A stretch of DNA of 64,000 nt from Leptogorgia sarmentosa (Eukaryota): NCBI GenBank assembly GCA_964658305.1, contig OZ210884.1, forward strand, positions 8,246,001 to 8,310,000, read 5' to 3'. Below, piece by piece: positions 6,966 through 39,100 of this stretch. How positions within the stretch are numbered: position 1 is the stretch's first letter; every line of letters begins with the position of its first letter. Under the pieces are notes generated by a model that saw nothing but the letters and a program-made list of their open reading frames with translations, had not been told where the DNA came from and did not search any database. The position numbers were made by a program, and so were the translations under genes.

Positions 6966-7469
6966 CGGTGAAGACTCAACGAACGCCCTCTTTGAACGAA
7001 GTTTGAAAAATTCTGACTTCGAAGACCCCCAGCAGCATGACGTCACACCATTTTGCGCGGAAAAAAGTTAGAACAATTTCATCGGTTTCTGATTGGTTCT
7101 GATGGATAATTTCGTTGATTTAATGAAAGCCGATAAAATTACGAACCATTCTGTTTCCCAACCCCACATCCAATGCCATTATCACAGATTTTGCTTCGCA
7201 AAACCGTCTGTCATAAGGGATAGTAATCATGTTCTGAGACATGAAGTATTATAACTTACATGAAGTATTTCAAGGATGTAAATATTAAGGTGGTTATGGG
7301 CTGATTTTGGAATGTTTCAATTTTCACAATTAATTAATATTCAATTTTTGAAACATTATTCAAGGTATTAATTCATTTGAATTGACTAATTGTTCATTAT
7401 TAAATTAAGACTTTGAATAAATTATTAATAGATCGACGTTTAGTAGTGATGAGATAAAAGTCAAATGCA

Positions 7470-10015
7470 ATGGAAGGTAAATTGAGGAAGAGATCAAAGA
7501 AAAGAAGAACTCGCAGGAAAGCCACCAACAAGAAAGATACCAGTGTAAAAAGGGACGACCAATTTTCTCTTCATGGTCAGTAAAAACTTCCACCTAAGTC
7601 TTAAACAGTGGTGTAACACAACCTCTAGTGACCCCAATGAATCGCCAGGTCCTGCACAGAGACAGAATCCAGAATCCAAGATTGGGGGAATCTGGAATCC
7701 AACATTTTTTGCTTTGGAATCCGGAATCCGAGAATCTCAGGGTTCCAGAATCCAGACTCATGGTTATAATAGAGGGAATCCAGAATCTGCTACAAGTCTG
7801 GAATCTGGAATCCACAGAGAGGAATCCAAAATCCAAGTTTGGGAATCGGACATCCAAGGTGGTGGGATCCAGATTCCAATCACAGGGATCTGGAATGCAA
7901 ATCCAAATACCTTCCAAATGATCTCACATGCAGCTAACTGTAGGCTTAACTTAATCATCTCATGAATAATCTGATCTGTTACCCTTTACTGGGCCATAAA
8001 GAATAGGCTGTATTTCTCTCAACAGTTGCAAAGCACACAATTGTAAAGTTAGCATTTATTGGAATACAATACCTGTTCTACATAACAGTTGCCTAAAGTA
8101 CATGTGTACAACTGTTTGCTTTATGTTAATACAATCAGTACATGAGATCCATTTTTCCCCTGGACCCTCTTGAATCACTGGAACTAGATCCACTTTATTG
8201 TCAATGTCCTGGGGGCTGTGAGGCTTGATCAGCCATAACTCCCACTTGAAATATATTGTTTGCAGTTGCGTCCAGTTTTTGAAAATTATGAACCCCCTGG
8301 TCTGTTAATTTCAATGTTTTAAAGTACTTTCTGGAATTTTTTCTTCAGAGGTTTCCCTTGATGATTTTGCAAATGCTCCATCGAAAGATGATGTTTTCAA
8401 AAAAGTATCTAAGAAAATGGTATCATCAACAGGTAATATCTGGAGCAAATTTATATCAAAGTACATCAGGATAAGATACCAAATAATTGTGGGCCTTGTG
8501 GCCATGTTTCAATTGACTAAACTAAACACCAAAAATCATGCAAGGTCTTGCCATGATCCCATCACCAGATCTTACCAAAAATCCAACAAGATCAAATTAT
8601 ACCTTCATGAAGATCTTGTCATGATTCCATAAAGCTTTGCATGCAGAAATCCTGCAAGATCTTACCCAAAATCCTCCAAGATCTCGTCATGATTCCACAA
8701 GATCTTTCCAAAAATCTTGCAAAGAAAAATCTTGCACGATTTTACCAAAAAATACCTTCAGGAAGATCTTGTCATGATTCCATAAAGCTTTGCATGCAGA
8801 AATCCTGCTTGATTTTACCCAAACCCTCCAAGATCTTGTCATGATTCCCCCAAAAATTAAGCATTTTTGGTGAAATCTTGCTGATTTCACTTACCAGATC
8901 TAATACCATGATTCCACATAAGCTTGCCAAAAATCCTGCAAAATCTTACCAAAATCATGGAATTCGCGTTAATGTTAGCCTGCATAAAATTTTTATATGT
9001 TCTTAGGAAATGTCAAAATGATATTTTTTCTCAATTTTTAGGCTCTTTTGCTTTACTTCGTCAGCCGGAAAAACTTGAAAATGTGAAGGAATTAGCCGAC
9101 GTTGTTAAGGCGTCAGACGACGAATCCCCTTGGTATGATCGGTTGGACATCGGGGAATCCGAAGACGAAAGCAGGGAGAGTGAAGAAGTTGACGAGGATT
9201 CAGAGTCGCTGAAAACAGACCCTGCTCTGAGTGATACTGGAAATGATGAACATACCAACATCATATGTGAGGCGTCAGTTCATCATGAGAATTGTTACCC
9301 GTTAGATTTATGGTGTATTCTGGCGAACTATATCAAACCAGAACAAATACAAACTTTTGCTAGCATTTGTCGAGGTTCGTATCAGGCTGTCAGCACAATC
9401 AGTTTCTGGTGTCGTCTATATGAACGCTTCACCCCAAATAACGCGAACTTACCTGCACGACTGAAATCAGACTGGATTGAAAGTAGAGATGGCTACAAAT
9501 GCCGTGTTGTCCGGGCCTTGTTTATAGCCTACCAGAGTCTTCATTACCAGTTGGAGCAGCTAACCTTGCAGGCGACGCGAGATACGAATGTGACTTCAAA
9601 AATTGTCGGCTTGCGTTGCTCTCGTGCCTGGTATGGAAGAAACTCAAATTCTCCGAAGACTTTTGTTTTTTATTTTAAATTTAAACTTAATGAACACTCC
9701 GCAAAGATATCTTTATGTGAATGGGATGAAAGATTTGAGTATCTAAATGCAAATAGTGAACGAGATTTTATAGTATTTAGAATAATTGTATCGAATTTTA
9801 TTCGTATACCATCTGTTTCTGGAGAGAGTCTGACCGACATTTCGGTTAACTTAAGTCGAAATCTGAGGTTTCATTGTATAAAAATGACATTTCACACTTT
9901 CCGACATGACGGAAGATATAGAAAAGGTGATGGAAAAGTGATTGTTCTTGATCCTGTTTCTGAATTTCGTTTGTTACGTTGGTGGTATCCATTGTATCCT
10001 CATTGTGGTGAATGA
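7470..10015 (+). CDS. TMEM183: TMEM183-family protein, 3 exons (7470-7575, 8349-8432, 9042-10015), ~387 aa
   Basis: Exon 3 has YPLDLWCILANYIKPEQIQTFASICR…FWCRLY…LPARL…RVVRALF and C-terminal LDPVSEFRLLRWWYPLYP, which match TMEM183A. Exon 2 has VSLDDFAN (cf. VTVADYAN) and exon 1 is a basic N-terminus. All junctions are GT-AG and phase 1/1 consistent. Confidence 0.88.
7660..7905. repeat. Degenerate (GGAATCC/AGAATCC)n repeat element in TMEM183 intron 1
   Basis: Many GGAATCC/GAATCC heptamers. The ORFs at 7573, 7594 and 7628 are artefacts of this repeat. Confidence 0.8.
8535..8960. repeat. Degenerate CAAGATCTTG/CATGATTCC minisatellite in TMEM183 intron 2
   Basis: Recurrent aagatcttgtcatgattcc and ataaagctttgcatgcagaaatcctgc (8631, 8782). 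Confidence 0.8.
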
Positions 10016-10239
10016 ATAAACGGAATATTTAAAATATATTGGTAGTTGAACTTCATGATAAAACTTCATCGTTATGCGAAGATCGACATAATTTATTTGG
10101 ATGCAAAGTGCCACAAGTCGGTAAACGACTGCTATAGCAATACAATAAATAGTTTATTCGCCTAACTTGTTCGGTCTCCACAGTGAATTACTTGACTTCA
10201 ATTAATGTGCATGTGTGCATGGCCAGTATATATAAGGAG

Positions 10240-10350
10240 CGGATAACAACCTAACATGCAATACAATAAGATTCGACCTTTCGAGCAAAGGCCTTTCGTC
10301 GGGATTTAGGGCCTTTGTTCGAAAGGTCAAATCTTATAGTATCGTTAGGT
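10240..10350. mobile_element. Inverted remnant of a short dispersed repeat resembling Penelope-like element ends
   Basis: Hairpin taagattcgacctttcgagcaaaggcc…ggcctttgttcgaaaggtcaaatctta. Related copies lie at ~19770-19835, ~20340-20410, ~31305-31350 and ~49050-49085 (cgaaacgtcga.tctta.tgtatcgtttaggt). The family assignment is inference. Confidence 0.5.
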
Positions 10351-11732
10351 AGTAGTAGTCAGATTTAATATTCAAGTTGAACTTTTTTTTATCTATTATC
10401 AGGCCCACATATCATGGTATATCATCATCAGATATTATACTGAACAAGTTAAATAATAATACAAGGTTTGGTGATAGGGTACGTGAAATCACAATACTAT
10501 TTTAAGGTCTTCATACTCATGCGTTAATTCAAGTTACAGTCATTGATCATCAAATGTATGTTGATCAATCATAAACAAAATGTATGGTTACAGTATATAT
10601 AAAATTTATTGCAATGCAGCTAATGTTTCGTTGCTACATCGCAGCATTTTTTCCATGGATGTCAGATGACTGAAATCATTGTACACACTGACACTGTCGA
10701 AAGCTAGATTCATTATTCACCTACCACACTCCCAAAGCTTATCCCAAAGCTTTTACATGGAGTAATCTGACTCAAAAGGTTTACATTATATTTATAAGAA
10801 ACCAACTACGGTAAACGAAATTTCTATCAGGAGAGAGCCTGGAACGAGGTTGAATTTCACAGGCTCGACGTATGGTTTATATTGGCGTGTCAGGTTACAC
10901 ATTGAATCATTGGTAATCGCCCACGACTATACTGCCGCATTGTTAGATTGTGAGATTATGAAACATGTCAATATTTCTCTTCTCTGTGGTTTTTATTGCT
11001 TTTACTTAACTGGATTTTGAAAAGGTAAGCAGATTTAATACATACGTAATGAAATTGACGATCAAATCGACGTTAAAATCCTTTTTATCGCGAAGTTTTT
11101 TGTTCAAGCACTTCCGTGCGCGGATCCGTTAAGTATAATTTCTAAAGAATATTGTGAACATGCATCACATTACAACTAGAGTACAACTGCAAGATGCACG
11201 CTGTTTTGATGTGGATATCTTCAAAGTCTTGGTGTACTGATAACGATATTTCACAAATGAATTATCATTCCACTGAAGTTACTAGCTCTTCAGTAAGCAA
11301 GTTCCAGCTGTCATGGACATGCGTATAAAACAGGATAAAATGCTCCACTAAAATATCTCAGATCGAATGACCTCCGGAAAAAGAAATATAGCTGTCGGTG
11401 TTTTATATATAAATTAGATTTACTGCACCGCATTTCTGTGTGTTTATTAGATTTATTCAATTTGATTTTGAAATATTTATAGCGTATATCGAGCAAAATT
11501 GGTGTAGGTATATCTGTAATTTGAGCCTAAATCCGGTAGTGCATTATTTGGGTAAATCGAATTTCACAATTTCCCCTACCCCCCGATGTGTGCAAGTGGA
11601 ATCGTGGCACTGTGTAATTAAACATTTTCATGATTTGGTAACCATAGAAAATAATCAAAACGGTCGATGCCTTCCCTGCTCGCTTTTTGCCTAGTTTATG
11701 ACAAATTTAAAAATTTAAACTACGCTTAATCC

Positions 11733-11782
11733 AAACCCTAAAATCCTAACCCTAAAATCCTAATCCTAAAATCCTAACCCTA
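11733..11782. repeat. Degenerate (CCCTAA)-like microsatellite
   Basis: aaaccctaaaatcctaaccctaaaatcctaatcctaaaatcctaaccctag. A similar tract occurs at ~55125-55230. Confidence 0.65.
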
Positions 11783-12729
11783 GCCATAAAAGTCGGAAAA
11801 ATTAATATTGAGAATAAAAGGGTTTGACTTGAAATTACTAACGCCAAAAAAGTGTCGAACCGGGGCTTGAACTATGAAACTGCGACACACGCACCGTGTG
11901 CTGAACCGTCTGAACTAATTTATATTTTGCGCTGCCTGAGAATCTTTGAAAACAAAAAATATTTATACCGGAAATGCAATATGTAACATTTAAAATGCGA
12001 GCAGGGAAGACATCGACCGTTTGGGAAGGCAACGACCGTTTACGAAAGGGAAATATGCGGTGGCGCCTGTGATTCCGCCTTTTTATCATTTAAAGTTGTC
12101 GCATGTTATCAGACCAAACAGTCAAGGGTATTTTATTGAATTTACTTCACATGCAAGTTCGCCAGTTTACATGGTATAACCCGAAGATCAACCGAGCCAG
12201 CAAAAGTTCTTACTTATTTAAAGTACTGATTCATCATGAACATTCTCAGTCGACGAACTAATACCTTTAAAAATGTTGTATAGCTATACATTTTTAAGTG
12301 TCAATTTGGCGCCATGAGGTGAGATCAGAAGAAGAATCTAAAACGGTAAAACCGTGCTATAGTTTATCGCCTAAACGATATACAAAGTTAACAGTTTCGA
12401 GCAAAGGCAAAGTATATCACATAAAGCACACACAGAAGATAAAATCAATCATAATTATAGTTTTTTACAAAAACGGAAAGTAGAAAAGTAAAGAAAAATT
12501 GTGGGCAAAAAACCCCACAATAAACACTGACATAATACCAAGTGGTGTGCTCGGTACCAAGTTTGGGAATTCTGTATTTCATATCCCAGTTATTTCATTA
12601 GCATCATTGCATTTTTAATTAGTATTTCAACTTTATTAGGCAAATTCCGCAAATATAAATGTCTTCCAATGTGTTGAAAAGCCCACTTCCATTTTTCATA
12701 TTAATTCACTTTAATTTATAGATTGAGTG

Positions 12730-15700
12730 ATGGCAATTGCCTTAAGTACCACTTCTGGTATATCAATTGAAGAAAGGAGATGGGCTGTGGTTGGTGTTTG
12801 TCTTAACAAAGTCCTAACACCACCTTTACGAAATGTCCTGGAATCGGAATTGCAGAAATGGTATCATGTGTTGTGTCAACCACCTGATGACATTGACAAG
12901 CAAGTTTTTCCGAAGCATAAAAAAGCACTCCCGCCTTCAAAACTTCAACTAAAATATGAAAACATCAACAACAACAAAATACACAAGTCATCTCGTGCCT
13001 ATGATTATACAGTTAAGGACCATTTGTCTTTGGCAAAGTTATTCGTCCAGCCCTTCATGGCGATGTTTACGGGTTTCGACCAAACCATGGATATGTCTGC
13101 AGTCCTGACAGTTATGTGTGAAGCAGACCCTTTTATATCATCTGGTGCTGCAGTCGACGCAAAAACGATAAGATCAGACGTCAGAAACAAGTGGGCACAT
13201 TGTAACTTTTCTGAGTGGACGCAACCGGAATTTAACGACGCGTTTCAAAAAATGGAATTCTTGGTGAAGAAAATGAAGTTATCAGCAGCAGATGAAAAGA
13301 CGCTTTGTGATGATCTGGATAGCTGGAAGAACAAAGGTGCATACAATGTAGTTTTGTCTTTTTATTCATATTGGTAAATAATTCCATTGAGTGGAGTGCA
13401 ATTTGGTTTGGAGAAAATGAACTTTGTGAAACTACAATCAATAAATTTCAATAAAATTAAATCATGCATGAAGATTAAAGGACAATACAGGTAAATTTGA
13501 ATGTATTTATAAGGCCCCCATTACACTATACCGGATTGCATCGGAGCGGAACGATTTTTATACCGGATTGGGCTGTTGATTACACTACGCCACTGTAATC
13601 CGGTACGTTCCGGTGCATCTTTTTGCCGCGAAGGTTTTGAATTCATTACAATTTATCAATTTCACTTCCAAAATGGTTGCCTTATACAAAATATTTTTAT
13701 GTTTGTATTGACTGCTGCAAGCGTGCTGCAAATAATGTCGTGTTTGTATCCCTAAATATCCAACATTATACGATATGAAGACGTCTTCGACAGCCGAGCG
13801 GCGTAGTGTAATCGCTGCCATTTCTTTCATCCGTGTCAAAATTGATCCGGAACGAAAAGTAATCCGGTATAGTGTAATAGGGGCCTTAGGTTTTACGATG
13901 TGTGTTGAAATTCAGACTTCGTTAATGCTTTTCTTTTCTCGGTTGAACTGAATTTCCTTCCGAAATTAATACCTTACGCTCCATTCTGTCGGCTAGGGGG
14001 GGTGCAATATATACTTTGCCATTGCTAACGTACAATTTTGAAATCAATTTCAGGTTTGCAGTTGTGTTTCGGTCAGGCTGTTGATCCTGAACTCCTTAAA
14101 CTGATTACAAAAGAGGTAGCAGAACTTCGTACAGACGTTGCAAAATGGAAATTTGAAAATAACACAGAGGTTTGAGCCTTGAGGTTTATTTCATATCATA
14201 TTTACTGGAGGATATAATAATGAGACGGTTTATGCAGCAATTGCATGTCCGTGGTTTTATATCTGATAAACATCATGATAATTTTCATAGACTTTCTTAG
14301 CTGTGATCTATTCAAAACCCTCCCAGTCCATATTTATCAAATTCTCCTAAGTCCAATCTTTTGGGATTGGAAACCAATCCCAGGCGCGATTAAAAAATCA
14401 ATCCAAATGGGTTAACTTTTCAATCAAATTTCAATCATTTACAGGTTCAAAAAAGCTTCTTGTTGACCTGTTATTGCCACGCACCGAAGTTTGAGCAATA
14501 TGATTGACTTATGAATATAAATCTTTACAAGGAATCTTTGAAATGGTTTTCAGTTGTCTTAATCGACTGACAAATTTTAATTGAATAACACACTGAAGGA
14601 GTATCTCTTAATCTAAATCCAATCTATTAGACCCGCTTATTTTTGAAACTGTTGAAAGATTGAATTTTGTATGAATTGTTGCACCACTTCTATTTTTGCA
14701 GATTGAGTCATTGCAGAAAAATTTAAGTGACGTTGAATCAAATTTAAAAAAAGAATTACGTAAGCTGACGCAGCGAGTTGAAAAATGTGAAGAGCGTGGC
14801 GATGAAAACTCGAAGGAAATAAAACTTCTCGACAAAAGATTCAGCACGGAGCTCTCAAAAATTCATAGTAAGCCAGAAGAAAAGATTCCTTATGTTTTTG
14901 ATGCTCCGGCCAGAAACCAGTATTTCTCTGGAAGAACTCGGGAACTTCAAGATCTTCAGCGTAACCTGCAACCTGACGATACTGCGCTGGGAGAAAAGGT
15001 GCAAATAGCAGCAGTCTGCGGTTTAGGAGGCGTTGGCAAGACAAGTCTTGTTACTGAGTATGTTCACAGAACGAAGAATCATTACGGAGGAGGTGTTTAC
15101 TGGTTTTCGGCAGAGAATGATATGTTTTTTGAGCGGTCCGTCAACGACACTGCTTTGAAACTTGGTGCCTTACTTGGGACGTTCGACTTGACTTTGACAA
15201 ATACCCTCCTGAAAATTGGGCAGACAAGAAAACCGTGTTTGCTTGTCTTAGATTGCTTAGATCAATTAAATCTGTCTCCAAATGTGTTAAAGTTTCTACA
15301 GGCCGTCGTTTCAAAACAAGATCTCTCTGCATCACTTCTTGTGATGACGAGAAGGAATGCAAGTAAACTCGTTGAGGATATTTCGGGTCTTCATGAAGAT
15401 CATTGCCTTACTCTAAAATGCCTCGAAGTGGAAGAAGCCAAGCAGTTTCTGTTTTGTAGAACCGGATTACCTCGTGATGAAGGCACGGACAGTGATTGTG
15501 AAAGTCTAGCAAATGAATTAGGAGGATTGCCACTCGCTCTAGAGCAAGCAGGAGCATATATTAAAGCACTCGGTTGCAGTTTATCTGAGTACCTCAAGCA
15601 ATTTCAAATTGAACGCTTGGAGCTGCTGAAAGATCAAGAAGCAAAACCAGCACACCTTAATGAATCACCTGAACGCCTGGCCGTTCATACGACATGGTCC

Positions 15701-18508
15701 TTAAATATCAAACACATCAAAGAGAGCCGACACGGTATGTCCGCCATCCGACTTATGAACGCCTTTGCATTCCTGAATCCGACCGAGATCGAAGAAGAAT
15801 TAGTCAATGTTGGTGAACGCCCAATTGAAGACAAAACATTTCGTGATTGCGTGAGTTCGCCTCTCGGTACTCGTCAAGTTGTTAAACTGTTGACTGATTT
15901 CTCACTCTTTACTTATGTCCTTGCGCACTCTGTCAGTACTCATCGCTTGGTACAGGAACTAGTCAGGGAAAATCTTGAACCTGAGGAGAAAGCTAAGAGT
16001 TTTGTTGATGCTGTACGTTTGCTTTCTTTTGCATTTTCTAAATCCATATCTCCTAAACCTCTTCTGGGTAATGTGGGTATTGAAGAACGCTTGAGAGCTT
16101 ATGATATACCTAAAAACCATTCTCAATATTATTTGTGGTCCAAGCTTTGCTTCCACGGCTTTTGTCTACAACAAAACATGGAGAAATTACTAGTAAATTC
16201 CAATCCAAAATGTTTAGATTCTCTTTTCGTTTCGGAGACAGCCAAAGTTCTTTATGAATGTGTTCTTTACTTAAGTGCCAACCAAAAACAACATGAGGCT
16301 AAACGCACATTAAATTTCGCTTACCGAATACTAGATTGGATTTCTGAAGAAGAGTACGAAACATTGCAAAAAAGTCTCTCCAATAACTCTTTGTTTCCTT
16401 CGCATGTTATTCCCTTACGAAAGTGGCTTCAGATTGTTTTAGGGAAATGTTGTATGCCTTCTATGCGTTCTCTTGAACCTCTTGATGACAAGAAAAGGGT
16501 TAAGTCCGGGGGTTCTGTGTTGCATGATGATGACGTAGAGCAGAACATTGAAAAGCTTAAGGTGGTAGGGAATACGAAATTCAAGGATGGTCTGTATAAG
16601 GAAGCAGTAGATGCATATTCTGCTGCCATTGATATGAGTAGAGGTACAAATGCCTTCAACGCTTTATTGCTGACTAACCGTGCCTCAGCGTATATTAAGC
16701 TAAAGCAGTTTGATGACGCTTTGAAAGATGCAAATGAGTATATATCGCGATTCCCGGATTGTTGGAAGGGCTATGCTAGAAAGGCTTTGGCACTCGATGA
16801 GAAAGTCAGTTCTGAAATAGCGGCAGCATTAGCTTGTTATTACTTCAGCCGAAAAGATGGTAGATGTATTTTTTCAGAATATAAGCCATTCGAAGGAGCC
16901 TTTCCAGGCTTGAAGGAGCGTGTTTTCTTGTGTCATACTGTAGAACAGTTGATGTCGGCATTGGCCTCATTCAACACAGACGATTGTCTCCGGGTTATAG
17001 TTCTTGGATCTCAAGAGTATGTTGTAAATGTCCCGTTCTTCCCCTTGATGTCTGTGAAGAACTGTATCATGGTTGGCACAAAACAGGATGCATCTGTTAC
17101 TGTAAAACTCGAAGGTAACACAACTATGTTGTTGTCAAAAAAATGCATGTTCGCAAATCTTTCTTTTGCTATTATTAATCAAGGTCAAATCAATGCTCTT
17201 GATGGTTCTTGGGTTAAGGTCCTTAATTGTAATTTTACTTCCAACCATAACAAGTCAGCAGCTGTGGCATCTACCGGCGTGCTCAACGCAGAACGATGTA
17301 ACTTCACTAAATGCAAAGCCGGTGGACTGCTGTGTGTTGGACCTGGCAATATGGCTGTTGATAACTGCACATTTTCAGGGAATGTCAAATCTGGCCTTGA
17401 GGTGCGTGAAAATGGAATACTGACAGTGCGAAACAGTCGCATGTACAACAACTACAGGGATGGTTTGTTAATAGGCCCTAGGGCAGCAAAATGTGACGCA
17501 TACGATTGTGAAATTTATCACAATGCTCGTGAAGGAATTACAGTCGTAGATGGCTCAAAACGCGTCACTCTCATGCGCAATGATGTTTACGGAAATGACT
17601 CGAGTGGTATATTTGTGAGAAATTCGGACGTCGATATGAGAGAGAACAAATTCTTTGACAATGAAGCATGGGGTATTTGGTCTCAGAGCAACTCTTTGTG
17701 TAAAGTGTCAATGAATGAAGTTTTCCGTAACAAACGTGGAGGAATTCGTGTTGGAAAACGGCTGAACTTGCCTCGCTCTGTTGTTGAACTCAATACAGTA
17801 CACGATAATATTGGCCCTGGAATAGTTGATACAATTAACAACTTCGAAGAAGTCAATCCTTCCCCTTTTTTCGGGAGCGGTAAAAAAGTGGTGAAAGCGG
17901 GTGGTGATTACAAATCGGCGAAATGCGAGAGTAATGTTGAGTACAATAACGAAGAAAAAAATGTCGCCAACCAATCGAAAATTTCTTTACCTTGGTGTTC
18001 TGGGTGCTACGGAAAGTGTGACGACCTTAAATTATGTGGGAAGTGTTTCACGTCCGGCTACTGCAGCAAAGAATGTCAAATTCAACACTGGTCAACCAAA
18101 CACAAGAAATTGTGTAAAGTTTTACGCGAGAAATCCAGCTTTTTGATCACCTCTATGAAAAGGTACCTTTCCGATGGCCACGTGAATGTTCACGCAAAGG
18201 GACTTGATGAAGTCGGTCCGAAGTACAGCCCCCCACCACCACGAAATGGTACAAGATTCACTGTTAAGATCCAGTCTGATTTTGAAAATCATATTGTCGG
18301 CAAGTATCACTTGCTTGTGATTTATGACCGTAGTCTTGATGTTTATGAAAGCTTTGAAGATGAATTCATTGACCGCCTTGTGAAAGAGTTTGGTGTCCTC
18401 TGTGAAAGAAAATATCAGGAGAAAAAGCTATTCTTTCACTGCGTGTTTGAAGACAAACGAAAGCTGCGATTGTTCGTCAATGATTTCCCTAATTTCCAAA
18501 AATGGTGA
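12730..18508 (+). CDS. NLR-like STAND protein: HEPN domain + coiled coil + NB-ARC NTPase + TPR + right-handed beta-helix + MYND zinc finger; exons 12730-13336, 14054-14169, 14702-18508; ~1509 aa
   Basis: The splices are phase-consistent (AAAG|gtgcat…tttcag|GTTTG and GAG|gtttga…ttgcag|ATT). Motifs: HEPN RNKWAH (13183-13200), FSGRTREL, Walker A GLGGVGKT (15020-15043), Walker B LLVLD, GGLPLALEQAGAYI and MHD-like THRLVQE. These are followed by TPRs (KVVGNTKFKDGLYKEAVDAYSAAI…LTNRASAYIKL…KGYARKA), PbH1-type repeats (IYHNAREGI, VYGNDSSGI, FFDNEAWGI) and a MYND finger (CSGC…CGKC…YCSKECQIQHW…HKKLC). Confidence 0.9.
13513..13885. mobile_element. MITE in intron 1 of the NLR-like gene
   Basis: TIRs GGCCCCCATTACACTATACCGGATT … AATCCGGTATAGTGTAATAGGGGCC, flanked by TAA/TTA (TA- or TWA-type target). 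Confidence 0.85.
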
Positions 18509-21500
18509 ACTTGGATTTTATGCATGTGCATAATGCAAATACTCGTGAACGAACAAATACATTATTTACAGTACAAATAGTATTCAATATTAATATACAA
18601 TATAATCAGTATAATAATAATATGTATGCATGTTATAAAACAATACTTACAATATTCAATGCTTCATGATCATGGCTATCCATGTCGCACAAATTAGTCC
18701 ATTATATACTATAGTAACATTTGAGTTGCATGTTCATTTTACGCTTCCATGGCGATGAAACAATAATTGTAAACGGTTGTGTATTCACAACTAAAACAAT
18801 TTACGGTATTACGTTTGATAAAAAAATGTTAATCCTTGTTCCAGTTGTAAAAACAAAAACAAATTGACTTCAGATCAATTACATATATATTTTAATTCTG
18901 AGTAAAATTGTATTAATCCATTATTTTTCCGATCAGCACGGTGGAAAAGACGAAATGCGGTCGGAGCGGGCCATAAAGACTAAAGTGGTAGCTAAACACG
19001 AAGTTTGTCTATATGATCAAGTGTTTGCCTAGCCGATTCTTAAATGGAATATAAGAATACTCTATATATTTTGAAAATCCCCATCCTGTGGATAACCTTA
19101 TCCGACTTTCGAATAACCAGTCCCAGCATCTCGTCAGTAAATTAAAGTGGCCAATGTCTGAGATCAGGTACTGCATGTATTTTATTATCTTGAGTGCAGG
19201 TGGCAATCCTGCTTCAATAATCTGATTTCATACAACGTTAAATTTCGTATATAGATAATCTTGTAAATATTGGGATTATATTGACTTGTTGCTATTATGT
19301 GAATATGTCTTGGTTATCGTATAGGTAATCCACTGCTCTGGTATGTATAACTACATTTTATACTACTACATATATAAACGAGTTGAAAATGAATGACACA
19401 TGCATGGGTCTGCATGGTGATGAAATTACAATATACAACTCATCATTCATGTTATATTAATGTCCAAGGGACGGTTGTTCGTAGCTCATTTAGCCTAAAT
19501 AATGATGAAATGATTCCACCGTTAAAGCTAAACGGGCTACAACTTTGCAATTTTACTAAATTTAGGATGCTCTTTCAAGCCGTGATAATAGAATTTCATA
19601 TTGTTTTAAAATTTGGTCTATAAGGTTAAAGGTCCATTCTACTCGGTTTGATATGTAAAGAACATAAAGAACATTAGCAAACTCTAACGAAAACGCCTTT
19701 TTTGCAGAAAGTTGCAAGAAATATTGCATCATGGGAAACATGATGGCAAAGTTCTACTCACTATTTAAACAGATTCGACGAATTGAAGGACCTTTTCTCG
19801 AAACGTCGACTCTATTTGTATCGTTTAGGTGCAGTGTGTATAGCTAGAATCTTTGCTGCGTGTTGATGTTAGTTTATACATTTTCATTAAGGAGGAAGTC
19901 ACTGGACAAATTCTTCGTTATGCGTATATGGTGTCTTTCAACAATAGTTAATTATATCCTTGGTAGAATGTTCCGGTTGAATTCCCCGCCATCTCACGCT
20001 AATATATGTTTGTATAAATATCAGCACACAAAAGCTGACACGGCGTTCGTAGTTGTTGAATTGTTTTCAGTTCCATTTCAGACAGTTCTTGGGATCAGTC
20101 GACTATACTCCAAGACCATTTTCAGCTGCATCTGAGGATTATACCTGGTAAGGCCTGGTAAGTTCGTGGCTTCGTGCGAGATTTTGCGTTTTGTTAACCT
20201 GCTGGGTCAAATGAGGACGAGAGTGCATGAAAGTTGGTAGTCACACGACCTTTGGCCGTTCTTAATGCTTTCTTAGCACTGTCATAGTTCAAACACTGGT
20301 CAAATGTTGATTGTAAATCCGGAGTCGGATTCGCCAATGTCGACGTTTCCAGAAGATCCGACTAAGGGCCTCGGAAATGTCGAATCTTATTTTATCGTTT
20401 AGGTATAGTGAACAGAACATTTTCTGCTTGTTGATGTTGTTAATTATATATTCACCAGCTGCACAATGGCCATGTATTGAACATTGTTATCATGCTGTGT
20501 AAACATTTATCTTGAATTCATCACGTTAAGAGATTCAATAAAGTTTGAACCTCTATAGATTTCCGACATTGCCGACTTCGTCAATGATCCGTTTTTGCAC
20601 CCATCAATGTGCTAGCTCTCCTGTGATTTGAAAAAAAACTGATTGTAAAAATTTGATCGAATTCCGAAGTGCGATCCTAATTGTAGGGTAGCGTCTTATG
20701 AAACAAATTAAATTTTCGACTGAATAAATGAATAAATTTGTCATGGATTCTGTGGTTTTTATGTTTGTGTAATCCATGGTCATGACCATGGTCTGTAAAT
20801 ATGATTATAAAAAAATTCCTCAGAAGTAAAAGCGACGTATGGGAAAGTCCTGTTGTCTGAAAGTCGTTATAGAATTCCCATTTTGGCGCCAGACACCGTG
20901 GAACGTTCCAATATAGCATAAAATACGTCAGGCATAAAATGATAAAATAAACGGTACTCAGTGCTTTTACTTCCATTTACTAGAAGGAGGCACAATTACC
21001 ATGCACACAAGTCAAACGGCTATAATAAAATTGGTGTCATGAAGTGCTCGAAATAAATTCAATGTACACTTTCTTCTAGCTATTGGCATATACATACATA
21101 AATTTCGTTTGAAGCTTTTTTAAATGTACATATTAAATGTATATCACATCAATTACTCACGAACGGATGCTATATATATATATATATATATTAGACTAAG
21201 TACATTACACTCAATTTCTCCGCTAATTTTACATTTTCCCAACACATTGGGAATGTTTGTGTTGCGGGTTCTTCGTGTAAACCAGTGAACTGTGCATTTT
21301 AAATTGTATAATTTATGTTAAAAAGTTGTATATCTGGAAACTTCCGATGAAATAGATTCTGTGAATATTTCCCCCCAAAGTTTTCAACTTTCATACAATT
21401 GGATGTTGTAGAGCATTGACAGCACACTCTTACAAAGTCATTTATGTACTTCCATGCACCACCTTTCACCAGTGTAAAATGGCATTAAAATTTTGCCGAC

Positions 21501-21781
21501 ATCTCTTGATGTTTGCCTTCCCTTCTCAATATGCCGATCAATTGATACAACGGAAAGGAAACAGGACTAATATTGTTGGAGAAGCTGTTCAAAGCATCTT
21601 ACACTTTCGGAAATATTTGATCAAGTATACCCCCAAAAAATGAACAATTGAACGGGGGAATGGACAATTGAACTATCGCCTTGAATTTAATAATATAAGT
21701 TATGTGAATGACGCCCTTTTTGGGGGGGAGGACACCCTATATGACGTTTTTGACATGTGACGTAAATTGCTTTCCGTACAG

Positions 21782-22627
21782 ATGAATATCAAGGAGCTGA
21801 ACTGCATTTGCAGTGAAAAGTGTCTGGTCAGTTTGAAAAGATTGAACGAAAAACCAAATACGACAAAGAAAGATCTTTTAATCAACAAAAAAACCGATTA
21901 TACGAAAGAAGATGGCGTATATTATCCGTTGGATATATGGTTTATACTGGCAAACTACATTAAACCAGAGCAAATTCAGACATTCTCGTGTTTATGTCGT
22001 GGATCATACCTTGCTGTAACGTCGGCGAAATTTTGGACACAACTTTATAAGCGTTTCATCATGGACACAGAAAACCTACCAATATGTTTGACGCCAAACT
22101 TTATAGCAAACAAGCCCGGAGTTAAAACTCGTATAGTTCGTGCTCTGTTTTTGGCTCACCCAAATCTTAATAAGCGTTTGGGGGCCGAAGAATCGTTAGA
22201 AATGGCGGACAAAGTGCTGCAACAATTAATTGGGCTACGTTGTCGAAATACGTGGTACAAAATAGAAAGTACATCAAACAGCTCCCACACTTATTTGTTT
22301 CGATTTCAGCTTGGTGGAGCCAGGAATGACGAAATTATTTCTAAATCTGACGACACATCGAGAACGCAGGACTTTTTGAGGCATAATCATGAAGAGAATT
22401 ATCTGGTCTTACAAGTGAAAGTCCGAGGTTTCACACGTGTGCACTTCACGGAACATGCTGTTCTGCTTGATTTCTCAATGGACGCAAACTTGACATCTCT
22501 AACGATGGTGTTTGGTTGTTCAAAGCAGGAAACGAGACACAGTAAAGAAGAGAGTATAGTGATTAAGTCAGTGAGTGCAATAAAGCTGTTACGTTGGTGG
22601 CACCCGTCATATCCTCATCGTGATTGA
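21782..22627 (+). CDS. TMEM183: Second, diverged TMEM183-family paralog (single large exon; any 5' exons unresolved)
   Basis: YYPLDIWFILANYIKPEQIQTFSCLCRGSYLAVTSAKFWTQLYKRF…RIVRALF…GLRCR…LLRWWHPSYPH aligns with the 9042-10015 exon. The ATG at 21782 directly follows a tttccgtacag acceptor. Confidence 0.82.
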   Translation: MNIKELNCICSEKCLVSLKRLNEKPNTTKKDLLINKKTDYTKEDGVYYPLDIWFILANYIKPEQIQTFSCLCRGSYLAVTSAKFWTQLYKRFIMDTENLPICLTPNFIANKPGVKTRIVRALFLAHPNLNKRLGAEESLEMADKVLQQLIGLRCRNTWYKIESTSNSSHTYLFRFQLGGARNDEIISKSDDTSRTQDFLRHNHEENYLVLQVKVRGFTRVHFTEHAVLLDFSMDANLTSLTMVFGCSKQETRHSKEESIVIKSVSAIKLLRWWHPSYPHRD

Positions 22628-34214: not shown

Positions 34215-35552
34215 CTAAAATGAGCATGCATACACTATGGCAGAGGCTTCACTTCGAGCTTTGTACATTGTTGGAAGTTCCTCCCACACTTGGCAATCAA
34301 GGTCGAAACATTCCACAGAATTGAGATACTTCTTTTCGCACCAATCATAACCCCCCATTACAACCACTTTATTCCCAGCAATTGTAGCAGCACATGATGA
34401 CCTTGGATACTTCATGGAGGGCAGCATTTTCAATGTGTTCTCTTTGATGTTGTACAGGATAATCGTATTTAACGACATGCTGTTATGAGCAGTCCCTCCA
34501 ATTATGATGACATTGTTTTTCCATCGTACAGTAGCCACATCACAAACAGCAAATGGCAAAGACTTCAAAGTAGTAACTTCGTTATTTACTATGTTATATG
34601 ACAACACAGTATCAACAGCTTTCTCTAACGTTCCAGATGGAGAACCACCAAATATATACAAGGAATCTCCAATCGCTTCCAACCCATGAAAACAGACGGC
34701 TTGCTGCATTTCGTGTTTCAATTCTACGGTATACGGGGGATGCAGTAGGATGCTGTAAATGGTTTTAAAAGGCATCTTTCCAGCATGGCCACCAACCAAA
34801 TAAAGACAGTTCTTGATAACACTACCCTTGTGTCCACAACACTTTAGAGGCAATTTCACAGGAAAGGGAACCCATGTTAAAGGCTTGTTGACCAATGACA
34901 ACATTGCCATGGTTTCGCTTACACATGCATTTGATCGTCCCCCTGTAACAATGACATCATTTCCATACAATATCGACATTGCAGAACCACGGGACTCTTT
35001 CATGGGTTTCAATACTGTCCACACGTTAGAGCCAGGGTACAGAGCCTCAACCGAGCTCAGGTTACCCTCGTTGTTCCTTCCACCAATGACCACAACATGA
35101 GCATTAACATTGGGCAAGGGTGTCTGTGTCGATTGAGAAATATTTCGTTTAGGATCTGGTATACTGTCTTTGGCATCAGTCAAGGTTTCTACTGATTTGC
35201 ATAAATGGCTTTGAAGTTGACATATCTCATATTGGAAATTACACATTTTCGTCAATGCAATCTTCACTTCTGACCATTGCAGGCTCATTTCGCTCAGATC
35301 TTCGTCGAGTACACATGCATGTTTGCCAAATTTCTTAAAAATCATGTCATCCTCACAATCAGGACAATGTACCAGCCTGTACTCACATTCATTATTCACG
35401 TGATCAGCCAGATCAGCCTGGTTGAAAGTTTCTCCACACTTCTCGTTTGTGCAAACAGCAGGACGATATCCGCACCCGCGAACATGTTCTTTTAGCTGTG
35501 AAACTGGAACGACCTCAGTACAGCCTCTTTCCGAGTGATCGCAGCTACTCAT
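34215..35552 (-). CDS. Intronless TRAF-type zinc finger + coiled coil + Kelch-repeat protein (no N-terminal RING)
   Basis: TRAF/SIAH-type fingers CDHSERGC…HVRGCGYRPAVCTNEKC…HVNNECEYRLVHCPDC. About six Kelch repeats with GG motifs (VVVIGGR, IVTGGR, YLVGGH, YIFGGS, IIIGGT, VVMGGYD…SVECFD…WEELPTM). The first ATG is at 35552. Confidence 0.85.
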   Translation of the reverse strand: MSSCDHSERGCTEVVPVSQLKEHVRGCGYRPAVCTNEKCGETFNQADLADHVNNECEYRLVHCPDCEDDMIFKKFGKHACVLDEDLSEMSLQWSEVKIALTKMCNFQYEICQLQSHLCKSVETLTDAKDSIPDPKRNISQSTQTPLPNVNAHVVVIGGRNNEGNLSSVEALYPGSNVWTVLKPMKESRGSAMSILYGNDVIVTGGRSNACVSETMAMLSLVNKPLTWVPFPVKLPLKCCGHKGSVIKNCLYLVGGHAGKMPFKTIYSILLHPPYTVELKHEMQQAVCFHGLEAIGDSLYIFGGSPSGTLEKAVDTVLSYNIVNNEVTTLKSLPFAVCDVATVRWKNNVIIIGGTAHNSMSLNTIILYNIKENTLKMLPSMKYPRSSCAATIAGNKVVVMGGYDWCEKKYLNSVECFDLDCQVWEELPTMYKARSEASAIVYACSF

Positions 35553-36186
35553 AAGACCATTCAAACGATCTGTGTGATTCGTGAAGGGATCGGATCATAC
35601 ACATATAAAAGACATGATTTTTTAAATCCTTCCAAGGTGCCTTTTAATGGAAATTTTACAGAAATGTTGAAAAACTAGGCCTTTAAAAACGGTCTTCCCC
35701 TTTCGCCACTCCTCATCATGACGCCATTTTCTATTTCAAATTGAATGTGAAACCTAAATGAAAGCATCTGATTGGATAAAAATGAACACGTGATTTGACA
35801 TAAAATTCGAAAATAAATTCGGGGTTCTGATTTTTACGAAATTTCCTTAAATTGAAGAAATTTTGACACTTTGGGGAGAATTTTAGGGAAATGTAATTGT
35901 TAAGGATCAAACCGAGCCTTGGACGATTTTTCATCGATATTTTGAAAATTTTAGTCGTTTTTGATCACTTTTGTTGACTACTGATTTTAAATATTCACTA
36001 TTCAGACTAGGGAATTCTTTGTTTATCTAAGGAAGTTTTACCGGTAAGTCTAAGGAAATTTAAAAATAATTTGCAACACGGAAAAAGAAAGAAGGGAATA
36101 AAAGGATTACCATTTCTCAAACAGGAACTTCAAATTTTTAAACTTTAAGCTTAAATCAAAAAAATTAAACGGCTACAAAGAGAAGT

Positions 36187-39100
36187 ATGGTGTTGTATCA
36201 TGACACTGAGAAGGATGTAGTATTCCTGATCGAAGGAACGTCAAATCTTGGCTTACACTATGCGAAATTCAAACCATATCTTGAGAAATTTATTGAGTAA
36301 GTATCCATTTTTATGCTTGAGGAAATAGATGTGGGATCGAAATGAATATCTGTGCTTCACCTCATCGATCTGCCTTAATCGAATGCTTTAAATTTGTAGC
36401 AGTCTTTTATACTCAAGCATAAATCTGTAACAATCTATACATTGTGAAACATGAGACATCCAGAGTACTGTACTATTAATTCGTTTTATCGATAATCGAT
36501 GAAAAAACATCATTCCACACCAATTAAATGAATGATTTCTTTCATCAACGATCAGTTGGTGTCGATTCGACCTCTAATCCATTTTAGTCTGACATACTAG
36601 TATACTATTGCTGATGCTGTAATTTGATTGGCTACATGCTCTACTCACTTACTATCTATTCCTTGATTCTGGCTCGTTATATTTCATGTTCGATGTCTGA
36701 GTCTACTAAAACAATCAGACTACTTGCTCTCAATCTCAGGCTTTGCCTCATCAATCAACAACATTGAAATCTCCATCTTGTAATCAATGTAACCGTTAAG
36801 TCTGTAATTAATTGAAAGACAAGACACAACTTTTTTTTAAACAAATGTGAAAGGCTAAAGGCACTATTTAATTATATGTTTGGAATCTAATTTAAAGCCT
36901 TGAGTATTGCTTAATGAAGACATGATACTTACTGTGTGTGAAAAGTCATGGTCTTCCTTGAGTACTCCAATTTCTTCCCATAGGGATTATTGAGAAAATG
37001 GTTTGGGGTAAGTCCCTAATTGGGATTAGTCCTGAGACTAATAATTTTGTCTTTAATTTTGTGGCACTGTTCACTTGAAACTGCGAAATCAATGTGATTT
37101 GAAGTCGAATGCCTCAGTGGCGAATAAAAACTAAATAAATGCAATGTCAGAGTAATTGTAACGTGAAATAATTGAAAACCCTCATGAAGCATCACTCCTC
37201 CAGCAGGAATTTGAATGCACTAGGATTGATTGACGAATTTGCTTTATGCTTCAATGCAGATATTTTAACGAAGGACCTGTTCCAGCTCAAGAATATGCTG
37301 CCCGTGTAAGTATCTGTACATCTCTACATTCAATTGAGTACAAAATGACCTTTCAAAAATGCATCATTGCAGAAAAATCCATACCCCCCCCCCAATAGAG
37401 GAAATTGAAAAAAACCCTGCTCCCCCTCTCCAAACATCCCACAGGGACCTTTCTCCTCCGTGGACATTGAGAATCTTACATAACCCCATCTCTTGGAAAG
37501 TTTAACAGGCCTTTGGACAATGTTATATCAACATGTCTGGACCCTTTGGATAATGTAAAAGGGCACCCTGTAGAAATTCTTTCTGTATATGTGGGTTGGA
37601 AGGGGTGCACTGGTATGATCCTCTTCTGGAACCACCAGTAATGTAAATTTTCCATCTTCCAACATTGCTGGTATACCTAGATCATCTTTTTCAGTATGGG
37701 AATACAAACTATTACTTGGTAACATATGGTACGACAGATGCCTATCCTGGTCCAGCTGTTAATATACTCTGTCGAACTAACAACAGTCGTAAGTTTTTGG
37801 ACCAAATCACAAACTTCAGATGTCAGGGTGGTGGAGGGGAATACCATGCTTTGCTGTCGGATGGCATGAGTGTTGCACTGGACATATTTGATCCTTTACA
37901 CGAGGGTGGGGTGAGAGAGTGCAATGTACAGAGATATTGTATTATTGTGGCTATGTCACCACCCTATCCTAATGCAACAAGTTGGGAAGGAAATCAATTT
38001 CGTGATTTGACTGTTGATCAACTAGCGGATAAAATGGGACAGGTATGTTGTTGATGTTAATTAAGGTTGGATCAAACGAGGAAGAAGCGAGGGTTTGCAC
38101 GTCAGAGTTCTGTCTGTTTTCTCATGCGCCAGTCAAACGAGGATGAGAGTTGAGAAGCGAGGGTTTGCACGTCAGAGTTCTGTCTGTTTTCTCATGCGCC
38201 AGTCAAACGAGGATGAGAGTTGAGAAGCGAGGGTTTGCACGTCAAAGTTCTGTCAACTCTCATGCGCCAGTCAAACGAGGATGAGAGTTGAGAAGCGAGA
38301 GTTTGCACGAGAGTTCTTTCAACTCTCATGCGCCGGTCAGTGAGGATGACAGTTGGTCAGAGTTGATCAGTCATTGATGTTTAAACGGTGTAAGAGAAGA
38401 CTAACTTTTTTCAACTTTTGTTTTTAGCATGGTGTTAATCTTTCCGTGATTGCACCACATAAAACAGCAACATTTCAAAATATATTTGACCAGGTAGGCC
38501 CATGTTAGAAAGATCTTATAAGTTCTTAACGTTGCTATAAAGTAGATAGTGGCCTAATACTGACTTTCAGGCACTAGCTGTATATTTCGCGTGAAGTAAT
38601 TTTTTTTATTGTTAGGCAAATCCGGATAACAAAAAATCATTGATTCCAAAAGATTTTATCAAGGAGAAAAATCACCTGGTGTGTCTTAAAGGAATTGATT
38701 TCCACGGTAAGTATATTTGATGCATGATCTTTCATCTTTGGGCTTGTTTGATTTTAAAAAAAATTATGCTACTCTGCATATTGCAAGAAAACTGCTATAA
38801 GTTTATTGTCTGCTCCCAATAGAAACGCTGAACTGGCTGTATTAGCTATGATCACACGCAACTTCACTTTAATCACACTTAAATTGAGTTATAAGTAGCA
38901 TTAGTAGAATCATACTCGTATACTATTGCAAATGCTGCAATTTGATTGGCTACTCTACTCGCTATCTATTCCTCGATAGATAGCGAGTAGCAAAATATGT
39001 GAATTTTCGTTAAAGAAAATGTCTTCTGAGACGCGGTTTTAAATTATTTTTTGCAATATTTTCATGTTTGATCTCTGATTCTACTAAAACAATTAGATTA

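What the first reader, a model, noticed from the sequence alone, without database searches (positions are those of the whole stretch)
12730..18508. Animal NLR-like receptor with an N-terminal HEPN (putative RNase) effector and a TPR/beta-helix/MYND sensor end
Seen: two ORFs listed separately in the track (12727, 14696) plus an unlisted 116-nt exon (14054-14169) splice in phase into one ~1509-aa protein. Exon 1 encodes a ~200-aa helical domain with DMSAVL…VRNKWAH, an intact R-x4-H motif. It is followed by a coiled coil, an NB-ARC NTPase with intact Walker A/B, GLPLAL and HRLV, then TPRs, a parallel beta-helix and a MYND finger. Known: R-x4-H is the catalytic signature of HEPN RNases (Cas13, Csm6, RNase L/Ire1 KEN), which act as dimers. 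STAND NTPases oligomerise on ligand sensing to activate N-terminal effectors, as in prokaryotic Avs antiviral STANDs and fungal NLRs. Inference: this is a one-protein sense-and-cleave-RNA immune or cell-death device in an animal, with no death-fold or LRR. A beta-helix plus MYND sensor is not a textbook NLR architecture.
Basis: partly seen in the sequence, partly recalled or inferred. Interest (0 to 1): 0.9.

Follow-up and report, generated by a model that had tools for sequence, protein, structure and literature searches.

The report
Coral immune switch with RNase head
This intact, spliced animal gene joins a likely RNA-cutting domain to an immune-receptor-type switch ATPase and a predicted heat-shock-protein clamp; the layout recurs in corals, bivalves and amphioxus and is a variant of a design already catalogued, with no activity tested here.

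Summary
Three exons join in frame to 1509 aa, and both joints appear in spliced contigs of 2 of 4 runs laid. The N-terminal domain is very probably a HEPN of the CXorf38/DUF4559-Swt1 branch, not the DZIP3 type. R-x4-H is intact in 117 of 120 close and 119 of 129 motif-covering distant rows. The query's own Pfam and fold matches stay below threshold. The HEPN, NB-ARC, TPR, beta-helix, MYND layout recurs in octocorals, Nematostella, Montipora and bivalves, and without the TPR in amphioxus. The concept is not new: HEPN-NTPase fusions are described, and a coral supplement lists 'NB-ARC, TPR, beta-helix, Zinc finger' genes. Two additions: the TPR is one Hop-type unit with a full carboxylate clamp (109 of 120), so it likely binds Hsp70/90 rather than a pathogen. 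Walker B has Cys in place of the second acid. Best reading: a switch-gated defensive RNase (0.6). RNase activity, oligomerisation and ligand are untested.

The parts
11000..11024 (+). 3' end of an upstream, probably non-coding exon; its 5' end is not determined
   Evidence: joint 11022>12720 (GT..AG, cut +2) in one X5 contig, 23 letters on the short side; an in-frame TGA at 12724-12726 precedes the ATG
12730..13336 (+). coding exon 1: HEPN-like domain of the CXorf38/DUF4559-Swt1 branch, aa 1-202; ends in a phase-1 intron
13183..13200 (+). RNKWAH, the R-x4-H motif (aa 152-157)
13090..13107 (+). DMSAVL; D121 is a candidate accessory acidic residue
   Evidence: D in 86 of 93 rows of A1, E in 3; role inferred
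14054..14169 (+). coding exon 2 (116 nt), linker
14702..18508 (+). coding exon 3, aa 242-1509 and stop
14993..15622 (+). NB-ARC STAND NTPase (Walker A 15020-15043, Walker B LLVLDCLD 15239-15262, GLPLAL 15524-15541)
   Evidence: PF00931 31.8 bits, cut-off 23.5; NF040586 FxSxx_TPR E 5e-48, below its cut-off
15740..15988 (+). DUF7779 region with HRLV (15941-15952); probably the winged helix (recalled)
   Evidence: PF25000 31.9 bits, cut-off 27
16541..16798 (+). three-motif TPR unit with carboxylate-clamp residues K861, N865, N900, K930, R934
17189..17830 (+). right-handed parallel beta-helix
   Evidence: PF13229 E 7.5e-30, PF05048
17996..18115 (+). MYND zinc finger, all eight ligands
   Evidence: PF01753; 8 of 8 ligands in 115 of 120 relatives
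18116..18505 (+). unnamed conserved C-terminal region after the MYND finger
   Evidence: 30-38% identity in bivalve, anemone and amphioxus relatives; MYND plus tail resembles small MYND proteins in the ESM Atlas

Best explanation
This spliced gene encodes an NB-ARC switch ATPase with a likely HEPN ribonuclease head, which would cut RNA when the switch oligomerises and pairs two R-x4-H motifs, probably as an antiviral or cell-death response. Shown: gene model, domain order, motif conservation, purifying selection, multi-copy family. Inferred step 1: at rest the C-terminal part folds back on the NB-ARC and keeps the protein monomeric, with Hsp70/Hsp90 held by the clamp TPR as a built-in co-chaperone. 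Inferred step 2: an unknown ligand, most plausibly bound by the beta-helix/MYND end, triggers nucleotide exchange and oligomerisation; the Asp-Cys Walker B may slow hydrolysis. Inferred step 3: paired HEPN heads form a composite site from R152, N153, H157 and perhaps D121, and cleave host or viral RNA.
For: Joints seen in 2 of 4 runs; relatives L002-L004 carry all domains in one ORF. R 117/120, N 120/120, H 120/120 in close relatives. R..H intact in 119 of 129 distant rows, with R and H at 95% against a median column of 42%. Matches to HEPN-type Pfam families in alignment A1 at E<=0.1: HEPN_Swt1 57 of 94, DUF4559 32 of 94. P0293, 35% identical to the query over 203 aa, passes the DUF4559 cut-off. 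Atlas hits at 0.97 carry HEPN_DZIP3 or DUF4559 in 11% of members. The model (pLDDT 95.5) ranks the Swt1 C-terminal domain first (Z 7.1, rmsd 3.5, 119 aligned). Lowest pooled dN/dS of nine regions is the head, 0.20. The same head sits on NACHT-LRR, nSTAND3-ankyrin, Roc-COR, kinase-KEN and RRM proteins, as a mobile effector would. HEPN catalysis needs a dimer (10.64898/2026.05.28.728550).
Against: The query passes no HEPN Pfam cut-off (15.2 bits against 27.5). Foldseek gave no match at E<=0.001 in 'pdb' or 'viral'. The Swt1 hit ties with an unrelated chain (Z 7.0) and lies in the range the tool calls common for helical bundles. Atlas recognition score 2075 is under its 2300 mark. Many non-motif residues are as conserved as R and H (L104, N80, N82, L126, W163), so conservation alone does not prove catalysis. 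No conserved Glu for an ExxxR motif. Beta-helix and MYND show no diversifying selection at domain level. PMC3710099 lists the Swt1 HEPN itself as inactive.
Confidence: 0.6

Rival explanations
1. Chaperone guard: the clamp TPR is the sensor. Free Hsp70/Hsp90 tails keep the switch off, and heat stress, unfolded-protein load or viral capture of chaperones releases it and fires the RNase, a cytosolic parallel to IRE1.
For: K5-N9/N6/K2-R6 clamp as defined in PMC2939883 is complete in the query and 109 of 120 relatives, and in Nematostella and Montipora relatives. The 47 solved-structure hits are led by RPAP3, Hop, SPAG1 and SGT2 TPRs. TPR dN/dS 0.21.
Against: The four bivalve proteins and a fifth bivalve-clade protein lack the last Arg (W or S), P0395 has lost most of the clamp, and no TPR was detected in amphioxus P0254. 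Other polar TPR positions are equally conserved. Chaperone binding could be plain maintenance. Many paralogues fit pathogen pressure better than one stress signal.
Confidence: 0.15
2. The head has a HEPN fold but binds RNA or oligomerises without destructive cutting, and the protein is a signalling or RNA-handling scaffold that works through MYND and TPR partners.
For: Uniform purifying selection; altered Walker B in the octocoral clade; the nearest solved fold is a HEPN reported as inactive; human CXorf38 is modelled as occluded.
Against: The full R-N-x3-H is kept across cnidarians, bivalves and amphioxus, whereas inactive HEPNs lose it. Shuffling onto many STAND and kinase proteins is typical of effectors.
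Confidence: 0.17
3. The head is an unrelated helical bundle whose conserved RNxWAH mimics the HEPN motif.
For: Sub-threshold Pfam score for the query; no significant Foldseek hit; no relevant hit among PDB sequences.
Against: HEPN-type Pfam families top the list over 94 members and the matches cover the motif; a full-length homologue passes DUF4559; the fold search ranks a Swt1 domain first.
Confidence: 0.07

Closest known systems
CXorf38/DUF4559 (PF15112) HEPN family fused to NACHT and DEATH in cnidarians and cephalochordates (PMC3710099; passages and section 6 read)
   Same: Homologous head (via P0293), R-N-x3-H, N-terminal to a STAND NTPase, same proposed role in defence or apoptosis
   Different: Here NB-ARC, not NACHT; no death fold; clamp TPR, beta-helix and MYND tail; the query scores below the DUF4559 cut-off; the zinc-ribbon insert described for CXorf38 was not tested
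Coral orthogroup OG0000334 in PMC10236652, Additional file 16 (rows seen through searches of the supplement)
   Same: [quoted passage not shown]
   Different: None of the 27 DUF4559 rows shows the whole layout; no N-terminal HEPN is named in the 13 of about 48 beta-helix rows I saw; membership was matched by layout, not by sequence
DZIP3/hRUL138-like HEPN (PF18738)-NACHT and -NB-ARC-TPR NLRs of cnidarians and bivalves (PMC8260672, PMC9646362, PMC10236652; passages)
   Same: HEPN head with Rx4-6H on a STAND NTPase, lineage expansions (17-83 per anthozoan genome), proposed RNase effector
   Different: Different HEPN branch: 3 of 94 members hit PF18738 at E<=0.1, the strong one in a separate second domain
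Bacterial NB-ARC-TPR STANDs of the FxSxx_TPR type (NF040586) and bacterial HEPN-STAND-TPR fusions (PMC3710099)
   Same: NTPase-winged-helix module matches at E 5e-48; effector-STAND-repeat logic
   Different: 164 bits against a cut-off of 300; no long TPR array; no PADLOC match
Carboxylate-clamp TPR co-chaperones (Hop/STI1, SGTA, RPAP3, PP5; PMC2939883, passages)
   Same: Three-motif TPR with K5 N9 / N6 / K2 R6
   Different: Embedded in a STAND protein; EEVD binding untested
RNase L / IRE1 KEN nucleases (role recalled; KEN as HEPN in PMC3710099)
   Same: One polypeptide couples a sensor to a dimer-activated HEPN-class RNase
   Different: Kinase-based switch; no homology shown outside the HEPN superfamily

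Membership tests
HEPN RNase superfamily | R-x4-6-H with N, D or H after R | tested here: met
   RNKWAH; RN..H in 114 of 129 distant rows
HEPN RNase superfamily | all-helical HEPN core with the motif at a helix end | tested here: inconclusive
   confident helical model, helix 140-156 ends at the motif; best hit Swt1 C-terminal domain Z 7.1, tied with unrelated chains; HEPN-titled or AbiF entries at ranks 22, 42, 45; Foldseek blank
HEPN RNase superfamily | upstream acidic ExxxK/R motif (present in many families) | tested here: not met
   no Glu at >=80% in A1; D117 and D121 are conserved instead; CXorf38 is also modelled with an Asp
HEPN RNase superfamily | dimer with a composite active site | not tested
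   complex predictor unavailable
HEPN RNase superfamily | RNase activity | not testable with these tools
   needs an assay
CXorf38/DUF4559 (PF15112) | score above the Pfam cut-off | tested here: not met
   query has no DUF4559 hit at E<=1; 32 of 94 homologues hit at E<=0.1 and P0293 passes, so a relative of the family
DZIP3-like HEPN (PF18738) | score above the Pfam cut-off | tested here: not met
   no hit for the query; 3 of 94 members, two weak and one in another domain
NB-ARC STAND NTPase | PF00931 above cut-off; Walker A GxGGxGKT; GxP; sensor-1 Arg | tested here: met
NB-ARC STAND NTPase | Walker B hhhhD followed by D/N/E | tested here: inconclusive
   D-C-L-D in the query and 109 of 120 close relatives; DD or DN in distant ones; the effect on hydrolysis is unknown
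NB-ARC STAND NTPase | ligand-induced oligomerisation | not testable with these tools
   needs biochemistry or cryo-EM
Canonical animal NLR (NACHT + LRR) | NACHT domain and C-terminal LRRs | tested here: not met
   no NACHT or LRR among 23 Pfam hits; NLR-like only in the broad sense
Carboxylate-clamp TPR | K5 N9 / N6 / K2 R6 in three motifs | tested here: met
   K861 N865 N900 K930 R934 align to the Hop TPR1 positions; 109 of 120
Carboxylate-clamp TPR | binds the Hsp70/90 EEVD tail | not testable with these tools
   needs a binding assay
MYND finger | C4-C2HC ligands | tested here: met

The most novel reading that the evidence does not exclude
An old animal family of STAND proteins guards the cytosolic chaperone system: an integrated Hsp70/90 clamp holds a CXorf38-like RNase in check until heat, proteotoxic stress or viral capture of chaperones releases it. 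That would be a cytosolic counterpart of IRE1 and a direct route from heat stress to RNA decay and cell death in corals.
Probability: 0.12. Interest if true: 0.85.

Novelty: new variant of a known kind. Interest (0 to 1): 0.45.

Why it matters
HEPN heads are the commonest named partner of NACHT domains in several cnidarians, yet the papers I read only propose their RNase activity. This family gives a compact, motif-intact head on its own exon, which makes the question testable. The head falls under Pfam cut-offs, so HEPN-STAND counts in corals, bivalves and amphioxus are probably too low. It is also a relative of uncharacterised human CXorf38. A chaperone clamp inside the receptor would link innate immunity to heat-stress biology.

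Tried and rejected
Single-sequence fold of exon 1: pLDDT 44, discarded. Foldseek against PDB and viral structures: nothing at E<=0.001; the second look ranked bromodomains first, Csm6 at Z 4.7. Profile search of PDB sequences: 3 hits at E 0.11-1.9, none relevant. PADLOC: no family for either part. HEPN homodimer prediction: not available, so motif juxtaposition is open. No whole genome is held, so copy number in this organism is unknown; no second copy lies in the window. No RNA holder was listed; the spliced contigs came from runs of unrecorded kind. A second read-laying over 7000-15200 gave no result, so the 5' end of the transcript is open. Exon-2 skipping rejected: stop at codon 204. DZIP3 membership rejected. 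A fast-evolving beta-helix sensor was not supported at domain level (four sequences, no site model). Earlier findings by sequence, by place and by the first word set: none. Paper searches listed no study describing this whole layout as a HEPN receptor or testing an animal HEPN-STAND RNase; the library lacks most subscription papers. Supplement files 13-17 of PMC10236652 and the bioRxiv supplements were not searched and may bear on novelty.
Full report
Gene model. Four of six listed runs were laid on 11000-20000. In X4 and X5 single contigs join 13334>14052 and 14167>14700 exactly as predicted, while X1 and X2 cover the introns. X4 and X5 are two samples of one study, and no run is on record as RNA. 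Independent support comes from relatives: of 15 loci fetched, L002, L003, L004 and L008 hold head and tail in one ORF of 1499-1697 aa, and 6 of the 120 best exon-3 relatives carry the head; most of the others are about as long as exon 3 alone, consistent with single-exon gene calls. One X5 contig shows a further upstream intron, 11025-12721.

Organism and spread. No genome is held. The named best hits are octocorals (Paramuricea, Dendronephthya), so the window is probably octocoral (inference). Exon 3 found 676 proteins at E<=0.001 among 7987 candidates. Several hits share a contig length, which suggests tandem clusters, and six Dendronephthya loci appear. Head, NB-ARC, TPR, beta-helix and MYND occur together in Nematostella P0403, Montipora P0399, Mytilus P0396 and Mya P0404; amphioxus P0254 has them without a detected TPR. 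The family therefore probably predates the cnidarian-bilaterian split (inference; no rooted test).

The head. In 120 listed close relatives (of 245 found) R152 is kept in 117, N153 and H157 in 120, but 64 of 202 columns are at least 95% conserved, so this is weak on its own. The 150 listed representatives (of 413) gave 158 aligned rows, 129 covering the motif. R..H is intact in 119; R and H stand at 95% against a median column of 42%, with several other residues as high. The query scores 15.2 bits against HEPN_Swt1 (cut-off 27.5) over the motif. In the 94-row alignment A1, 57 members hit HEPN_Swt1, 32 DUF4559 and 3 HEPN_DZIP3 at E<=0.1. P0293 passes the DUF4559 cut-off over residues 14-203 and is 35% identical to the query end to end. 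The Atlas's top clusters (0.97) carry HEPN_DZIP3 or DUF4559 in 11% of members or no family; its recognition score is under the tool's mark. The model from A1 is confident (pLDDT 95.5). Its best match among 48,161 chains is the yeast Swt1 C-terminal domain (Z 7.1, rmsd 3.5, 119 aligned), tied with an unrelated chain at Z 7.0 over 74 residues; that this chain is the Swt1 HEPN is my inference from PMC3710099. Foldseek found nothing significant. Together I put HEPN homology at about 0.9 and catalytic activity at about 0.7.

A mobile exon. Among 30 longer relatives scanned, the head is fused to nSTAND3-ankyrin, NACHT-LRR, NB-ARC with or without TPR, Roc-COR, an RRM protein and a kinase-KEN protein, and to NB-ARC-WD40 in P0394. 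In the four genomic loci examined the exon ends at the same phase-1 position as here. A 40-row tree of heads groups them largely by animal lineage, with different layouts as well-supported sisters, for example amphioxus NACHT-LRR with the beta-helix type (100/99). This fits repeated shuffling; direction was not tested.

The switch. NB-ARC passes Pfam's cut-off and the module is closest to bacterial FxSxx_TPR STANDs (E 5e-48, below cut-off). Walker A, the Arg pair after Walker B, GxPLAL and HRL are conserved. Walker B reads D-C-L-D in 109 of 120 close relatives, and D-D or D-N in distant ones. That the second acid serves hydrolysis is recalled, so slower turnover is a guess.

The tail. The TPR is a single unit whose best solved relatives are RPAP3, Hop, SPAG1 and SGT2. 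K861, N865, N900, K930 and R934 match the clamp consensus K5 N9 / N6 / K2 R6 of PMC2939883 (passages). The set is complete, allowing K/R exchange, in 109 of 120 relatives. Of 19 more distant proteins searched, 14 gave a TPR row: 5 complete, 5 lacking the last Arg, 2 with other changes and 2 partial. Other polar positions are as conserved, so this predicts rather than shows EEVD binding. The beta-helix and the MYND finger are intact. Pairwise dN/dS over four full coding sequences is 0.20 for the head, 0.21 for TPR, beta-helix and MYND, 0.32 for NB-ARC and 0.57 for the linker aa 976-1050 (six dependent pairs, orthology unknown). The gene is under purifying selection and no domain looks like a fast-changing sensor at this resolution.

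Mechanism. Best reading (0.6): a STAND-gated defensive RNase in which oligomerisation pairs the heads; the TPR recruits Hsp70/90 and the ligand is unknown. Rivals: a non-cutting scaffold (0.17), a chaperone guard (0.15), a non-HEPN head (0.07). Everything beyond the gene model, domain content and conservation is inferred. The dimer could not be modelled.

What is known. PMC3710099 (passages and section 6) defines the CXorf38 HEPN family, notes NACHT and DEATH fusions in cnidarians and cephalochordates, and proposes defensive RNA degradation. PMC8260672 (passages) counts 17-83 DZIP3-HEPN-NACHT proteins per anthozoan. PMC9646362 (passages) reports them in pearl oyster. PMC10236652 (passages, and searches of supplements) lists DZIP3-HEPN,NB-ARC,TPR genes, about 48 beta-helix rows including NB-ARC,TPR,beta-helix,Zinc_finger, and one DUF4559,NB-ARC gene in the same orthogroup. 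PMC8195603 (passages) describes other invertebrate HEPN fusions. The TAMALE preprint (passages) models CXorf38 with RNEIMH and an Asp. The DARNA preprint (abstract and passages) is a bacterial example of an oligomer-gated N-terminal HEPN, without a STAND domain. My searches listed no paper naming this whole layout as a HEPN receptor, noting the clamp, or testing activity.

Verdict. A real, intact gene; a new variant of a known kind. The motif-intact CXorf38-like head and the chaperone clamp make it a good test case. Interest 0.45.

Noticed in passing
window 8912-10015 (+) and 21761-22627 (+): Two paralogous ORFs (38% identical over 239 aa) flank the gene. No Pfam or NCBIfam hit. They resemble TMEM183 from recall only.
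   Followed up: partly
window 34215-35594 (-): ORF with a TRAF-type zinc finger and Kelch repeats.
   Followed up: no
window 37647-38054 (+): Exon matching the Med25 VWA domain.
   Followed up: no
window about 11600-12200, 13400-14000 and 19430-20000: High-copy repeats: depth in X1 and X2 is tens to hundreds of times the background; contigs folding back at 13870>13685 suggest an inverted-repeat element in the intron after coding exon 1.
   Followed up: no
window 11725-11782: Short degenerate run of CCTAA-type units upstream of the gene.
   Followed up: no
P0335 (Xenia, XP_046854686.1): The same HEPN-like head in a kinase plus Ribonuc_2-5A (KEN) protein: possibly two HEPN-class domains in one RNase L/IRE1-like chain.
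   Followed up: partly
P0274 (Actinia) and P0304: The head sits C-terminal to Roc-COR GTPase modules.
   Followed up: partly
P0244 (Dendronephthya) and P0248 (Mytilus): P0244 has this head followed by a DZIP3-type HEPN; P0248 has two matching stretches. Tandem HEPNs could form an intramolecular site.
   Followed up: no
window 17984-18505: MYND plus tail resembles 150-175-aa stand-alone MYND proteins; one Atlas cluster is 64% viral, commonest Nucleocytoviricota, others fungal (scores 0.92-0.93). A lead only.
   Followed up: partly
PMC10236652 Additional file 16, row 536: A Porites gene has Glycosyl_transferase in front of NB-ARC, TPR, beta-helix: an effector swap on the same tail.
   Followed up: no
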